64,000 bases of DNA from Sphyrna mokarran (Eukaryota). Below, piece by piece: positions 8,288 to 48,288 of this stretch (position 1 is the stretch's first letter; every line of letters starts with the position of its first letter). Made by a program: the position numbers and the translations under genes. The notes below the pieces were generated by a model. That model did no database searches. It was not told the origin of the DNA and saw only the letters and a program-made list of their open reading frames with translations. The stretch is from assembly GCA_024679065.1 (NCBI GenBank), contig JAGIQG010000027.1, positions 4,588,001-4,652,000 of the forward strand, read 5' to 3'.

Positions 8288-8631
8288 TTAAGAGGTCTGG
8301 ATGTTCTCTGATGTCGACGATCTGGGTGATGTGGATGGAGAGGTAGTTGATGACTTGTCCGATCCGTCCCCAGTTTCCTTTGCAATGTTAACCGACAAGT
8401 GGGGGGCAAATCCCTCTTTTTCCCGCTTCTTCTGCTTCATTCTACGGTTCTGGAACCAGATTTTTACTTGGGTTTCATTCAGCTCCAGCGTGGCCGCTAT
8501 CTCCACTCTCCTGGCGCGGGTGAGATACTTGTTAAAATGGAATTCTTTCTCCAACTCTGTTAATTGCTTGGTGGTGAAATTGGTGCGCATTGTATTGGTC
8601 TGGCCACCTAACCCATAATCAGCAATTCTGG
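8288..8631 (-). CDS. HOXB1: Homeobox protein Hox-B1, exon 2 (homeodomain)
   Basis: [57 protein letters not shown]; AATLEL is the B1 signature. Acceptor ttttcgcag at 8632-8640, phase 1. Confidence 0.96.
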
Positions 8632-9387
8632 CTGCGAAAAAAAACGAAAAGGAACACAATTAGATCGACCCTACATGAGCAAGCACCCCTCCCCCACCCG
8701 CCAGCATTAACCAACAACTTCAGCACTTAGTGTTCCGGAACTTGATAAAAGCAAGAGATAAAATACAAGACGAGGCTTTTAGGCTGAATCTAACCCATCT
8801 CGTTGAACGGCATGATTGTAAAACATAACAATAAACCTTAATTAAGTCATTGAAAATTCAACGCGAAACACTTGCTCCCTCCTCGTGAGTTTTTCAAATA
8901 CATATTGGGTCAACTTATTTTCAGAAGGATGCATCTTAAATAACAAATGAGCAACTTGTATACAGATGTGAAGCTACGGCGAATGGGGTTAAACGGACAG
9001 ACCCTTGCACATCACGTTTAAAGCTGCAGTCCCATTTTCCACAAGAAGCAGTCTGTCATTTTCAGGTCAGTTTCATAAATTCGGAATCAACTGAACATTC
9101 ATCTCTTATTTACTCCAATTGGAAGGGGGAAGGGGGAGGGGCGCCAGCAAATGGGTGATTGCAAAACCCATTCGAATATTGTAGGTCTTATTTTGCAAAG
9201 TTCAAATAGAGGGCAAAGTATTTTTCATTCACTGCAGACGCTTTTGGGAGCAAAAACGTGCTAACGTCAGAGTTATTTTACAATTTGGAAGAATTAAATT
9301 GTAAAAGTTGGGAAGTGTTTGAATTGAATTTTCGCCAGTTTTTATTTGACTCAGGGTGGAAATGATTCGAACATGTCTCATACTAAC

Positions 9388-9979
9388 CTGTTTTAGGAGG
9401 GTTTCTTTTCACTTTCATCCAGTCAAACGTCTGGCCCGTTGAGGATAAATCAGAGGTGCAGGAAGGTTCCTTTTCCCCTTCTTGAGATGGAGACAGATTA
9501 GCATAAATCCCATACGCCAAACCCTGTTGCTCTTGGCCGTAGGAATGCTGATACTGGCCCAACCCTGTGACTCCACAATAACCTTCTGAAAGCGGATTGA
9601 CAGTGGATGCAATATTACCAGTGTACCCCGAGCTTTGGAAGTATGCCCCATCCGAATCTTGGTTGAAAAAGTAATGGTGATTGTAAACCGGATTATAAGT
9701 TTGGGTCGTAGAGTTGTTGGGACCTGGACTGGCGCATGGGTTCCCCAGACTGGAATGATGCGAATAACTGGCTGGCTGGTGCTGATGCTGGAGTGTATTG
9801 TGCGCGTTTCCTCCTACTAAGAATCGTCCATCACCATTGTAATTGTCAACGTTACCTGCACAAGGAGCGAAAGCTGTTATCCCTTGTTCTGAGTGGTGGT
9901 AACCCTTGGATGAGTAGGCGCTCGTCCCACGATTACAAATTGCGTACTCTAAGAAGGAGTTCATTCTGGTATTGTCCAT
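9388..9979 (-). CDS. HOXB1: Homeobox protein Hox-B1, exon 1
   Basis: Starts MDNTRMNSFLEYAICNRG and ends TFDWMKVKRNPPKT (group-1 hexapeptide). Donor GTTAGT at 9387. Confidence 0.96.
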
Positions 9980-10038
9980 CTGCCAGTGATGGACGGTCAA
10001 CCTGTTCGGGATTCTCCCTGCCCCTGAAACCCCAAGCA

Positions 10039-10065
10039 CTATGTCACCCAGTCAACTTCCTCCAT
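10039..10065 (-). other. Upstream ORF in the HoxB1 leader (MEEVDWVT*)
   Basis: gccATGGAGGAAGTTGACTGGGTGACATAG; strong Kozak context, out of frame, starts 86 nt upstream of the main ATG. Confidence 0.6.
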
Positions 10066-10105
10066 GGCTCGCTGGCAATCAAACGATATCAGTCAAGAAG
10101 ACATT

Positions 10106-10127
10106 CACGTGACCCCGAGTCACCAAT
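10106..10127 (-). promoter_or_regulatory. HoxB1 proximal promoter: E-box plus CCAAT box
   Basis: CACGTGAC 10106-10113 and CCAAT 10123-10127. Confidence 0.65.
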
Positions 10128-10164: not shown

Positions 10165-10230
10165 TGATCCATCACCGCGGTGACATTTACATCACAAAAG
10201 CTTTCAATCAAAGTTATCCGCATCAATCTG
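10165..10230 (-). promoter_or_regulatory. HoxB1 rhombomere-4 autoregulatory element (b1-ARE)
   Basis: Three Pbx-Hox repeats on the minus strand: AGATTGATG (10221-10229), TGATTGAAAG (10201-10210) and TGATGGAT (10167-10174). A Sox/Oct-like CTTTTGTGATGTAAAT and a TGACA Meis/Prep core (10181) lie between repeats 2 and 3. Confidence 0.9.
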
Positions 10231-12227
10231 ATAGCAACACTTAAACGTCAAATCGGTCTTCAATAAGGTGGGGGGGGGAGGTGGAGAGAAAGTTGGAATT
10301 ATTCAAGATTGTCTTTAAAGTGTTAAAAAGATTTAGTCAAAGCAAGAACTACAGCTGCCCACAACTTGGGCATAATATCTTACAGGAGCACGGCAGAGCT
10401 CAAGTAGGTCATCTAATATATATATATATTTCGATGTTTTACTTGAATAATACAAATAATAAGAGAAAAACCTTTGCATTCTTGTCGCTTAGGACAGTTT
10501 TTATTTGAATGAGAGTCGCGATAAAAGGTGCATAACACCTCGCTTAACTTGGTTTGTAAAAGTCTAGACTACATGGAAATTAATCAAACGTCAATGCCCA
10601 AATACAGAAAACATGTGTTGAGGAGGAGTTATAAAATAAAGCATCCGGCTGAAATAAATTGCGATGATCTTTTGGCGAATGTTGTATTGGATTAAAAGCT
10701 ATGAGATGTCCATATGATCTTTGGAAATGTAATGTTCCTCATGGGATGTTTGATAAAAGGTCTCATAACAAATGTAATATAGATGAGTATTACCCTGTTA
10801 GAATTGCATGTTGCTTAATTACCGTTTTTTATATCCCAATTTTGTAATTCGTTGGGATCTGCTATAGAGTCATAAAACCATGGGTTAAATTTAGAAGTGT
10901 ATTGTAATAAAACATATTCATGCTGTCATTTCTGTTCCTTTAGTGAAACTGTATAGGGAATTCAATGAAATGCAAAACATTAAAGATATAATGTCAATCC
11001 GACAGAATATTCCCCATAATTTGAGAGTTGAGCCAAAAATAATGTATATTTAAAAGGCTTATTACGACGCCATGGAAGTGATTGCTTTGCGAAGAAATGC
11101 ATCCAGTCAAATCATCAATAATATATCTTCAAGAAAATAAGTAGACTATATGCTTTTTATTTAAAAACATTTTTGCTAAAAAAATTGAGGCATTTATCTT
11201 TTATATCCTCAGCCTTACTATAACGTTTATGGATATGTGTAATAGATGCAGTGCTGACAGCATTACGGGAGAAATCAGTCATCTACTTTCTCAGTGGGTG
11301 CCATACATTACTTCCCAGCACCAGGACTGAAGTTTTGACGATTGTACAGGAGAGAGAGGGGGAGGGGGCGTTATTCAGTGGGTCATAAATATTTCCTCAT
11401 CTAAAGTTTTGAAATGCATCTTACCTAAGTCAGCAAACTCAAGTCAACTAAAAGTGGCAGAATAGCCTGACAAAGTGAATAGTGATCATTCATATTTTGG
11501 AGGAATTGAAAGCATCTCGAACAATGTCCTTCACAGTCGAGTTTCGTTAGCTGTCAGGAAATGTACTATTATCTCAACATTTAAGCACGTTTAATATGTT
11601 TGACATAATAAGATGGTTTTCCCTTTACATTCTGGGTTATCACATATATACACACAGTTTAGTGGTGATTAGCTAGAAGCCCGGGGCCTACAATTATACT
11701 AATTTACTCAGTTAACAGAAAAAGATTAATTGTACAGTATGTGATGTGTCACTGTTGCACCTAGACATTCGAGCTGTTCGTCGTCCGCCATCTGTTAGGT
11801 TCATGGAGAGCTTATATTTTCTACATAATGATACCTTATCACTGTCACCGAATTCAAGAAACATTATTTTTGCCTTCACTCATTCAGTCGGTGGATCCAT
11901 ATGTCAAAGGCAGCTCTGGCAGCGAGCAATTTAAATGTTTGATGTCAGCTCCATTTTGCTGCTGCTTATTATTGCATTCTTCTCTTTAGGGAGGGGGAGA
12001 AAGGGAGAGAGACATAAAGAAATAGATGGATATTTTCAGTTACAAAGGGAGGAATGCAAAAGAAAATGAATAGAACAAGGAAAGGGATAGCTGAAAGGAA
12101 TAGGGATAGAGAAGGCGAATGGTACAGATGACAAAGTGTGGAGAGAAAGAAAGAGAACGTAGCACAGTAATGCGTGAAAGAAGGATGAAAAAAGAGGATA
12201 AAAGCACGATGTGTGCATGAAATGAGC

Positions 12228-15200: not shown

Positions 15201-17689
15201 ACATCTCTGTATATTCCTCCGTATCTATAGTTACCCCGCACGTTCTGATCTCTTTTTGTAGCTTTCTCAATGCGCCTTTTAAACCATTTATTGGTCCCCC
15301 CCCCCTCCCGTTTTCTCCGTCTCTGCAGTTTTAAGTTTGTTTTTATGTCCCTCGCGATTCTTCTATTCAGATAATGAAAAATATGAAGCTTGTTAAAGAA
15401 ACAGCATTAACGTTGCCCGCCTCAAGTCATTAAACATGAATGTTTTAGTGTGTGATATGCATTTTCTGTTGAATATTGTATTGAAACCCATCGATTGACG
15501 AGAGTTATACGCAGTCTGTGCTACAAGAAGCTTTGAAAAGGAGGTGCAGTTATTACAATTGGAACAATGCCTAAAATATTAAGAGTAAGAAAAGATAAAA
15601 TAAAGAAACGAGAGACGGGAGGGGGGGGCTGAAAAAGTAAAACATGATCTCATTTAGTAGGTGCTTCAAGGTATTTTGAAATCATTACGAAACAAAACTT
15701 GAGATTTTAAAATACCATTCAACAAAGAATGCAATATGCAGAGTTAAAATACTGCACAATATTAGCAAATGGTGAGAATGTTTTGTGTGTCAGACCACAC
15801 GGCGCCATTTTGAGACTGGTAAGGCGGGCCTGGTGATTCTGGACATTTACAGCATCTTCTGTGGAGCGTTTCCAAAGGCCCTACCAAATTTCTGCCTTTC
15901 TTAGGAAACACCCATGACTAGGCAAATGCGTAATATGATTTATTTTTATGTCACTGCGATTGATTTCTCAAGATGACCTCCTCATTCATAAAGCAACTTG
16001 ATGTATGAGTTTAAGCAAAAAAAATTACATCTTGTAAATAAACCTCCCTTGGCAGAGCGCGGGATGGGGTGGGGGAGGGAGCACAATTGCGAATATAAAA
16101 AAATGGACTGATGATCGATGTTGTTAGTTATTTTCTGGTCAGTTGCGCGAAGCTTTCCTGCTCGCACCCTCTCTTTGTCGGGCAGTTTTTCCTGCCTTAC
16201 CCAATTATTTTAGCCGCTGCTTCTTTTGTTGTCTCAGCTGCACATCTGGCTCCAATGTGTAAAATTTTAATTTCTGCCTCTCCAGATGTTATGTTTTAAT
16301 TTCCTCACTATCTTACTCTGTCGATCTATCTCACCATTCATTTTATCGCGGTGATATTAAGTATGAGAAACGTGGTACTTGCACTGATTACAAACAATTC
16401 GAGAGACCCAACCACTGATGCAGGAAAGCCAACGGAATTGAGAAGGTTCGTGGCAGGAAAGGTATCCGGCTGTTAAACCAACCGCCAGATCTCTTTTCTT
16501 TCACCCCACCCCCACAAAACAAAAAAATGATGTTTGATATAAAGGATAACCAGCCAGCATTGCGACATTGTGACGATCCTATGTAACATGGAAGGGGAAG
16601 AAACTGTAAGAGAAAAGACATACAACGCCAGACATTTAAAGCAGCGCATTGCACCAACTCAACAGGATTAAATTTCACGAGAAAAGTACACTTTCGGATA
16701 GTTGTTAAATCATTTCATTCAGTAATGGGTAGTGGAAAGAAGCGGATTCGTTTGGGTGGATGGGAACATTGAACTCCTCCGCCCCTCCCCCACAGGGTTT
16801 CCGTATTTATAATAAACTTCATGTTTTCCACATTTCGATCAGCTGTTTTAGGTCCTATGATACCTAAAACCTATCAGAATAAATTTAAAATGGACATCAT
16901 ATAGAATAAAATAAATCTTAATGCATGTTGAGCAATCTGCCCATCAAGCCTGTTAATACTCTGCTCCACGTTGCAGATAACTACTTTAATCACTTTCAGC
17001 CATTTTTTATATTAATTCTTCAAGTAGTGTTCTAAGGAATTACACATACAATAATATCAGAAAATTTACTGTTCCCCTCCACCCCCCAGAAATTGACGGA
17101 ATCAGGGAACTGGACACTTCAATTCAGCACTAGATGGAACATCGGTTGAATAATAGTTGATCACTCTGATACAGGAGCGGATGGGGGCGGGGAGAGGAGG
17201 TTCAACACAGACATAAATGGCATTAACTCTCCAAATCGTTTTCAATACACATTTGGTTTACCCATTTCACTGAGCCACATTCAAGCATAAATCGAGACAT
17301 ATACAAAAACATATACATTATACCTTGACAAAGAACGCTGCGGAGGGAGTAGTTCCAAACAATGTTAGAACACTTGGTTATGCATCCTGTTTGTTGCTTA
17401 AAGCGATGGAATGGCACAACAACTAGGATAAATAACTCCTGCCCTTTTATCATTGTAGATCCAACAAGATCAATCCAAATATCCAGGGTAGGCACATTTC
17501 TCTTAGATTAAAAATATTGTGATTTCCTTTTTTAATCAAGTGTGTGTTACTTATTTTTGTCAACACACAGTGAGTATTTTCTGCATAAGCTATCTATGCT
17601 TTAATTCTTGGTGCACATATCTCGAAAAAAACACACTAGCAGTCACCTTGAAACACAGACGGTGAGGTTTCATTAAAGAATTAAGTCGT

Positions 17690-48194: not shown

Positions 48195-48288
48195 TTGTGT
48201 CGACTACATACTCCCCTAGATACGAATTTGTGACCACAACTTTGTCAACACAAATTCGGATCTACAGGGTATATATAGAGGACAGACA
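48195..48288 (-). ncRNA. MIR10A: microRNA miR-10a precursor
   Basis: Mature 5p TACCCTGTAGATCCGAATTTGTG at 48249-48271 and 3p CAAATTCGTATCTAGGGGAGTA at 48209-48230 form a hairpin, in the canonical position upstream of HoxB4. Confidence 0.97.

What the first reader, a model, noticed from the sequence alone, without database searches (positions are those of the whole stretch)
10039..10065. HoxA1-type uORF (MEEV...) retained in HoxB1 with a stronger start context than the main ATG
Seen: the leader contains gccATGG AGGAAGT, encoding MEEVDWVT*, which stops 59 nt before the main ATG; the main ATG context is weaker (cagATGG). From recall, the mammalian HOXA1 leader has a conserved inhibitory uORF beginning ATGGAGGAAGT (MEEV), whereas mammalian HOXB1 has a very short leader. 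Inference: the uORF predates the cluster duplications, survives in this lineage's HoxB1, and makes translation depend on leaky scanning or reinitiation. This would be a translational control layer lost from mammalian HOXB1.
Basis: partly seen in the sequence, partly recalled or inferred. Interest (0 to 1): 0.75.

Follow-up and report, generated by a model that had tools for sequence, protein, structure and literature searches.

The report
Ancestral upstream start codon of HoxB1
A shark HoxB1 gene carries a tiny upstream reading frame whose start matches the one known from mammalian HOXA1 and lines up with the start of a predicted longer HoxB1 protein in newts, turtles and birds, so this start codon likely predates the Hox cluster duplications and may tune how much HoxB1 protein is made.

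Summary
Confirmed on the minus strand: an 8-codon uORF (10065-10039, strong context) ends 59 nt before the start of a shark HoxB1. Its start shares 13 bases with a published human HOXA1 primer, and the promoter in front aligns with a teleost hoxa1 locus, so a pre-duplication origin is supported. It is not lineage-specific. The same ATG opens a predicted in-frame 32-residue extension in 14 named newt, turtle and bird species; skate and frog records are compatible with it; one teleost HoxB1 has GTG there. The position of the start is conserved, but not the peptide, length, frame or context. The weak context that defines the Hoxa1 stringency sensor is not met. Spliced RNA of a close relative covers the ATG with 37 nt upstream, but promoter spacing puts the transcription start at about the ATG itself, so a DNA-level role is a serious rival. 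Translation and loss in mammals were not tested. New variant of a known kind.

The parts
10165..10229 (-). Three Hox-Pbx-type repeats (10229-10220, 10210-10201, 10174-10165), read as the rhombomere-4 autoregulatory element of HoxB1
   Evidence: Pattern scan; aligned with teleost locus L001; consensus described in PMC8846413
10123..10127 (+). CCAAT box, 148 nt before the main ATG
   Evidence: same place in L001; compatible with skate and frog read-through peptides
10106..10111 (-). E-box CACGTG, 46 nt before the uATG
   Evidence: present in teleost hoxa1 locus L002, and as CACATG in L001
10086..10091 (-). TGATAT motif 14 nt after the E-box; the same spacing in L001 (HoxB1) and L002 (HoxA1); function unknown, possibly TATA-like or initiator-region
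   Evidence: the E-box + TGATAT pair occurs once in the window; not evident in the frog peptide
10039..10065 (-). uORF MEEVDWVT*, G at -3 and +4; holds an ETS-like GGAAGT and a TGACA (10046-10042) (motif names recalled)
   Evidence: identical in a contig of a close relative (X17 record 17)
9980..10038 (-). 59-nt spacer without ATG; its 3' part reads NRLTVHHWQ in the main frame, matching NRLTLLHQWQ of tetrapod extensions
   Evidence: no gaps in the four contigs that cover it; no folding signal, z 0.37
9388..9979 (-). HoxB1 coding exon 1; main ATG 9979 (C at -3, G at +4), second in-frame ATG 9964 (A at -3)
8632..9387 (-). Intron, GT..AG
   Evidence: Skipped in contigs of runs X16, X17, X18
8288..8631 (-). 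HoxB1 coding exon 2 with the homeodomain

Best explanation
An upstream ATG in strong context opens an 8-codon reading frame 59 bases before shark HoxB1; it is likely inherited from the group-1 Hox gene that predates the A/B duplication, and it is predicted to lower HoxB1 output in mRNAs that start upstream of it. Shown: the sequence, its homology with HOXA1 and with the HoxB1 leaders of other jawed vertebrates, and RNA of a close relative reaching 37 nt past the ATG. Inferred: the ATG lies inside the spread of transcription starts, as in mouse Hoxa1. Long-start mRNAs would load most ribosomes on the strong ATG and make HoxB1 by re-initiation (short frame, 59-nt spacer, two in-frame main ATGs) or by leakage when the ATG is near the cap; short-start mRNAs would skip it. 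Because the upstream start is strong and the main one weaker, high eIF1 should not relieve repression as it does for Hoxa1. What the frame encodes is not conserved, so the act of initiating, not the peptide, would be the function.
For: 13-base identity with the human HOXA1 uORF start. Promoter alignment of the window with teleost hoxa1 locus L002, score 47 against at most 36 in 1000 shuffles. A mouse Hoxa1 primer ends the leader Q-stop-Q-M where tetrapod HoxB1 reads Q-W-Q-M and the window H-W-Q-M. 24 of 275 HoxB1-type proteins begin 32 codons early, at a Met that aligns with the window's ATG (scores 31-56 against at most 24 in 200 shuffles each, six peptides), while the next residues vary (MEG, MDG, MAG, MEW). 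Skate record P0192 aligns without gaps over the uORF and fixes a purine at -3. X17: spliced form present, no intron cover, contig 9949-10102 with one difference, in the coding part. No gaps in the leader in 4 of 4 runs, against many in the intron. The Hoxa1 uORF is translated and mildly repressive in mouse.
Against: No translation data for any HoxB1. The CCAAT box lies about 60 nt before the ATG, the distance to the major start of mouse Hoxa9, so the main start may be at the ATG itself. The tetrapod evidence comes from protein annotations, which can only show species that have an open in-frame ATG; 247 of 275 HoxB1-type proteins show no extension, and annotation differs within one genus and even one species. 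In skate and frog the A of the ATG falls on a wobble position and is not fixed by the peptide (1 of 4 proline codons keeps it). Teleost L001 has GTG at the site and teleost L002 has no ATG there. The newt leader keeps the DNA through a frameshift, which fits a DNA element as well. A cap-proximal uORF repressed only weakly in reporter work on HOXA11.
Confidence: 0.5

Rival explanations
1. The conserved stretch is a DNA element of the core promoter (initiator region with ETS-like and TALE-like sites). The ATG is a passenger at or upstream of the main transcription start and is rarely translated.
For: CCAAT and E-box spacing points to a start near 10065. TGACA and the bases around it are kept in shark, teleost, newt, frog and bird while frame and peptide change. 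Teleost L001 keeps 11 codons' worth of the element but not the ATG. Hox leaders taken for translation elements have turned out to be promoters before (PMC9456764).
Against: X17 and X16 contigs run 37 and 132 nt past the ATG. The homologous Hoxa1 ATG is translated and repressive in mouse. ATG is kept in 14 named tetrapod species while the next codons vary, with the annotation bias noted.
Confidence: 0.3
2. The ATG is an old alternative start of a longer Hox1 protein. Newts, turtles, birds and ranid frogs still make the extended form; sharks (early stop and frameshift) and HoxA1 (stop two codons before the main start) closed it into uORFs.
For: Open in-frame extensions of 32 codons in newts, turtles and birds and an in-frame Met 30 codons upstream in ranid frogs, reached by different indels. 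Turtle and duck extensions differ at 3 of 32 residues; teleost L001 encodes 11 of these residues unchanged. Emydura P0092 has Thr in place of the main Met.
Against: Only open in-frame forms can appear in protein collections. The newt peptide is frameshifted over about half its length, so the residues are not what is kept. P0092 is flagged low quality. Shark (86 nt), skate (88 nt) and teleost L001 are closed or out of frame. 0 of 27 HoxA1-type proteins (all from cartilaginous fish) have an extension.
Confidence: 0.13
3. The match to HOXA1 is coincidence or convergence, and the shark uORF arose on the HoxB1 line alone.
For: Only 13 bases match. Bony-vertebrate HoxB1 has one extra base in the motif. 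No HoxA1 DNA from a cartilaginous fish could be fetched, and teleost L002 lacks the ATG.
Against: No match above 11 bases in 3000 shuffles; promoter paralogy; similar 3' end of the leader; similar position relative to the main start.
Confidence: 0.07

Closest known systems
Hoxa1 uORF (Ivanov et al. 2022, PMC8892498)
   Same: Same first bases (13 identical with the published human primer), one AUG-started uORF in a short leader of a group-1 Hox gene, paralogous promoter, similar last bases before the main ATG.
   Different: In HoxB1, which that paper's main text never names. Strong context (G at -3) against conserved weak context; 8 codons against 21; out of frame with a 59-nt spacer against a stop that lies 3 nt before the main ATG (inferred from a primer); frame not conserved across vertebrates.
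Short re-initiation-permissive uORFs such as ATF4 uORF1 and GCN4 uORF1 (recalled, not from a call)
   Same: Short frame, efficient start, spacer long enough for re-initiation.
   Different: No second inhibitory uORF between it and the main start, so no delayed-re-initiation switch of that type; 8 codons is longer than those uORFs.
Hox promoter unit of CAAT box plus E-box (Akirtava et al. 2022, PMC9456764)
   Same: CCAAT next to a CACGTG E-box a short way upstream of a short leader.
   Different: Described for Hoxa3, a5, a7, a9 and a11; that paper reports no such E-box in its non-IRES leaders, Hoxa1 among them. Here it is a group-1 unit shared by shark HoxB1 and teleost HoxA1 and HoxB1 loci.

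Membership tests
Conserved inhibitory Hox uORFs with weak start (Ivanov 2022) | AUG-started uORF upstream of a Hox main ORF | tested here: met
Conserved inhibitory Hox uORFs with weak start (Ivanov 2022) | uAUG in suboptimal context (no purine at -3 and/or no G at +4) | tested here: not met
   G at -3 and G at +4; purine at -3 also fixed in the skate record; the frog record implies a pyrimidine at -3
Conserved inhibitory Hox uORFs with weak start (Ivanov 2022) | uORF lies inside the CAGE-defined leader | tested here: inconclusive
   Contigs reach 10102 and 10197 in 2 of 4 runs and end at 10063 and 10061 in the other 2; contigs cannot show starts or strand
Conserved inhibitory Hox uORFs with weak start (Ivanov 2022) | uORF conserved across orthologues | tested here: inconclusive
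   Start site conserved widely; closed short frame shown in the window and one close relative, compatible in skate; in-frame extension in newts, turtles and birds; GTG in one teleost
Conserved inhibitory Hox uORFs with weak start (Ivanov 2022) | Translated, repressive, and responsive to eIF1/eIF5 | not testable with these tools
   Needs ribosome profiling and reporters
Conserved-peptide uORF | Peptide conserved across species | tested here: not met
   Only ME is shared between shark and tetrapod forms; the newt form is frameshifted
Paralogue (ohnologue) of the HoxA1 uORF start | Homologous position and flanks in A1 and B1 | tested here: met
   13-base match, promoter alignment, 3' end of the leader; no full mammalian or shark HoxA1 leader was held
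Vertebrate HoxB1 | Orthology by sequence, cluster position and r4 repeats | tested here: met

The most novel reading that the evidence does not exclude
One upstream AUG of the ancestral group-1 Hox gene has been rewired line by line: a weak 21-codon uORF in HoxA1, a strong 8-codon uORF in sharks and skates, and the start of an undescribed longer HOXB1 protein (30-32 extra residues) in newts, frogs, turtles and birds, kept in frame through different indels, with the choice of transcription start deciding whether it is used.
Probability: 0.2. Interest if true: 0.7.

Novelty: new variant of a known kind. Interest (0 to 1): 0.45.

Why it matters
The Hox uORF survey covered mouse leaders one gene at a time. 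If this start codon is shared by HoxA1 and HoxB1, it is a translational control point older than the cluster duplications, and it offers a natural series in which one AUG acts as a weak uORF, a strong uORF or an in-frame extension. HoxB1 feeds back on its own rhombomere-4 enhancer, which lies 100 nt upstream, so a modest change in protein per mRNA could matter. It also predicts a longer HOXB1 form in bird, turtle and amphibian embryos that can be looked for. If the rival holds, it is an ancient group-1 core promoter: useful, less surprising.

Tried and rejected
No whole genome is held for the window, so its own HoxA1 and HoxD1 leaders could not be compared. No RNA holder listed as such among 24 runs; 4 of the 6 rows guessed as RNA were laid and no DNA run. 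Contigs of X15 and X18 stop at 10063 and 10061, at the uATG; without a DNA run beside them, with human-like records filtered out and with 5' ends under-read, this is less than a weak hint and is not used as evidence for a start site. X15 shows no spliced joint and has deeper intron than exon contigs, so it may hold DNA. The table of other letters hid 188 rows, so the uATG could be read only for X17. Degenerate DNA patterns for the Hox1 N-terminus found nothing in metagenome, prokaryote or viral contigs. A search with the duck extension found only the 4 clusters already known and missed the newt forms; the representative library gave 2 repeat proteins, not relatives. A HoxA1 N-terminal search gave 4 cartilaginous-fish clusters. 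RNA structure in the leader: none, z 0.37. A bacterial promoter scan is not relevant. MAFFT placed the uATG differently from the pairwise and peptide alignments; I relied on the scored alignments with shuffles. The middle piece of the long skate transcript could not be placed (best 28, shuffles 25-35). Conserved-peptide reading rejected (frameshift in newts). Earlier scan notes: nothing bearing.

Full report
OBSERVATION. The window holds Hox genes of paralogy groups 1-6 on the minus strand. The group-1 gene is HoxB1 of a shark: its exon-1 protein hits elasmobranch HoxB1 first, is identical at 183 of 190 residues to Mustelus HoxB1, and is separated from HoxA1 by a 100/100 branch in a 29-row tree (two near hits labelled 'A1-like' group with B1). 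Three Hox-Pbx-type repeats lie at 10229-10165 (consensus from passages of PMC8846413). The uORF is as described: ATG at 10065 with G at -3 and +4, MEEVDWVT, stop ending at 10039, 59 nt to the main ATG at 9979, which has C at -3 and G at +4; a second in-frame ATG follows 15 nt later with A at -3. An ATG in 120 nt is expected by chance (P 0.89; strong context 0.19; the exact GCCATGG 0.003).

KINSHIP WITH HOXA1. Two papers print the same human HOXA1 primer (one passage each of PMC11493384 and PMC5778893). It shares 13 bases with the window at 10067-10055; the best of 3000 shuffled leaders reached 11. The human base at -3 is C, the shark's G. A metagenome scan confirmed 2 of 28 candidate stretches as group-1 loci: L002 groups with HoxA1 and L001 with teleost HoxB1 (both are long branches). 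The window's promoter aligns with L002 over 46 nt (score 47; at most 36 in 1000 shuffles), and all three loci have an E-box or near E-box followed 14 nt later by TGATAT; the pair occurs once in the window. A mouse Hoxa1 cloning primer (one row of a supplement of PMC9456764) shows the leader ending Q-stop-Q-M, where tetrapod HoxB1 reads Q-W-Q-M and the window H-W-Q-M. Promoter, uATG and leader end thus all point to a shared A1/B1 ancestor. Against: L002 itself has no ATG at the site, and I held no full mammalian or shark HoxA1 leader.

THE START IS WIDESPREAD, THE FRAME IS NOT. Of 323 proteins held, 21 lacked the N-terminal motif, 27 were HoxA1-type and 275 HoxB1-type; 28 of the 275 and 0 of the 27 begin early. 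Only 120 of 298 hits were listed, and no mammalian protein was among those held. 24 of the 28 have exactly 32 extra residues: 6 named bird species, 6 turtles, 2 newts and 8 unnamed records identical to the duck form. Their first Met aligns with the window's uATG (six peptides, scores 31-56, at most 24 in 200 shuffles each). The shark stop falls on a tyrosine codon of the bird and turtle form. Teleost L001 encodes EGSFTALTYYL, identical to the duck, but from GTG; an ATG 6 nt upstream opens the same frame, which stops after 16 codons. The newt form is frameshifted over about half its length yet keeps the DNA. Three ranid-frog records read through the whole promoter in frame, with a Met 30 codons before the main start and a possible orthologous ATG 4 nt earlier in weak context (score 78.6, at most 1.2 in 30 shuffles). 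A skate record (P0192) aligns with no gap across the uORF and an 88-nt distance; it fixes a purine at -3, but ATG and stop depend on wobble bases. Distance from E-box to uATG: 46 nt in shark and skate, about 48 in frog, 30 in L001. Caveat: protein collections show only open, in-frame forms, and annotation varies within a genus (Cygnus, Mauremys) and a species (Natator), so neither the share of species with the ATG nor selection for the frame can be read from these counts.

IS IT IN THE mRNA? Four runs guessed to be RNA were laid (4 of 24 listed). Three show the 8632-9387 intron spliced. X17, a close relative with a spliced joint and no intron cover, has a contig from 9949 to 10102 with one difference, in the coding part: the uORF and its context are identical and RNA extends 37 nt past the ATG (depth 2.9, strand unknown). 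X16 reaches 10197 but also holds intron contigs. None of the four contigs over the leader has a gap, while intron contigs have up to 21. X15 and X18 end at 10063 and 10061, which I do not use as evidence (see tried and rejected). For comparison, mouse Hoxa1 leaders are 64-98 nt with a 21-codon uORF; if that count includes the stop seen in the primer, the uAUG is at -66 and the starts straddle it (inference). In mouse Hoxa9 the CAAT box is about 60 nt before the major start; here that is about 10065. So the ATG probably lies inside the spread of starts.

MECHANISM. Most likely (0.5): in mRNAs that start upstream, the strong ATG captures scanning ribosomes, and HoxB1 is made by re-initiation after 8 codons and 59 nt, by leakage when the ATG is near the cap, or from shorter mRNAs that lack it. 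The effect is probably modest: removing the Hoxa1 uORF gave a modest rise, and a cap-proximal HOXA11 uORF repressed little (passages of bioRxiv 10.1101/2025.07.28.667205). The weak context that defines the published class is absent, so the eIF1/eIF5 response should differ from Hoxa1 (inference). Rivals: a core-promoter DNA element with a passenger ATG (0.3); an old alternative start of a longer protein (0.13); chance (0.07). Nothing about translation was tested.

LITERATURE. PMC8892498: I read parts 1-6 of 9 of the text and supplement 4; Hoxb1, shark and lamprey do not occur in the main text, and Hoxb1 is not among the 13 genes with conserved uORFs. Its SI PDF, with the Hoxa1 alignment and the mouse Hoxb1 start, could not be read and may bear on novelty and on loss in mammals. 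PMC9456764: passages and supplement rows. PMC8293171: passages, nothing bearing. Searches, seen as listings only: Hoxb1 + uORF, 8 papers, none on this by title and abstract start; searches likewise. The library lacks most subscription papers, and bioRxiv supplements are closed. The names ETS, TALE, ATF4/GCN4 and the hoxb1b label are recalled.

VERDICT. New variant of a known kind; interest 0.45.

Noticed in passing
window 23165-23127 (-), about 10235 (-) and 9430 (-): Two unnamed skate-type records (P0192, P0188) read as long-range spliced transcripts: a first piece between HoxB3 and HoxB2, an unplaced 26-residue piece, then either entry upstream of the r4 repeats and on through HoxB1 in one open frame, or entry at TFDWM near the end of exon 1.
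   Followed up: partly
window 15805-16035 (+): Rfam match to HOTAIRM1 conserved region 2 (47.3 bits, cut-off 37) between HoxB1 and HoxB2, a HoxA-cluster lncRNA family matched in the HoxB cluster; a possible paralogous conserved element.
   Followed up: no
window 48203-48278 (-): mir-10 precursor between HoxB4 and HoxB5, as expected.
   Followed up: no
window 10111-10086 (-); L001 2854-2879; L002 286-311: E-box, 14 nt, TGATAT with identical spacing in shark HoxB1, teleost HoxB1 and teleost HoxA1: a group-1 core-promoter unit shared between clusters.
   Followed up: partly
L001 2986-3003; L002 445-462; window 9979 and 9964: Both teleost loci have lost the first Met and start at the equivalent of the second in-frame ATG; the tandem start may buffer the weak first one. 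L002 has a 3-codon uORF overlapping its start.
   Followed up: partly
P0092 (Emydura HoxB1): Thr in place of the main Met behind an intact 32-residue extension; the record is flagged low quality.
   Followed up: no
window 55785-55775 (-): Second exact copy of the 11-mer, between HoxB4 and HoxB5, not near a Hox start; probably chance.
   Followed up: partly
window 61237 (-): HoxB5 main ATG in poor context (C at -3, A at +4), as reported for mammalian Hoxb5.
   Followed up: no
window 10313-10358: A conserved stretch upstream of the r4 repeats matches the end of a 725-nt contig in run X18; possibly a divergent transcript from the HoxB1 promoter.
   Followed up: no
L001 1078-1497: An ORF ending like Hox3 lies 1.5 kb before the Hox1 gene with no Hox2 ORF between, which suggests the teleost HoxBb cluster (label recalled).
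   Followed up: no
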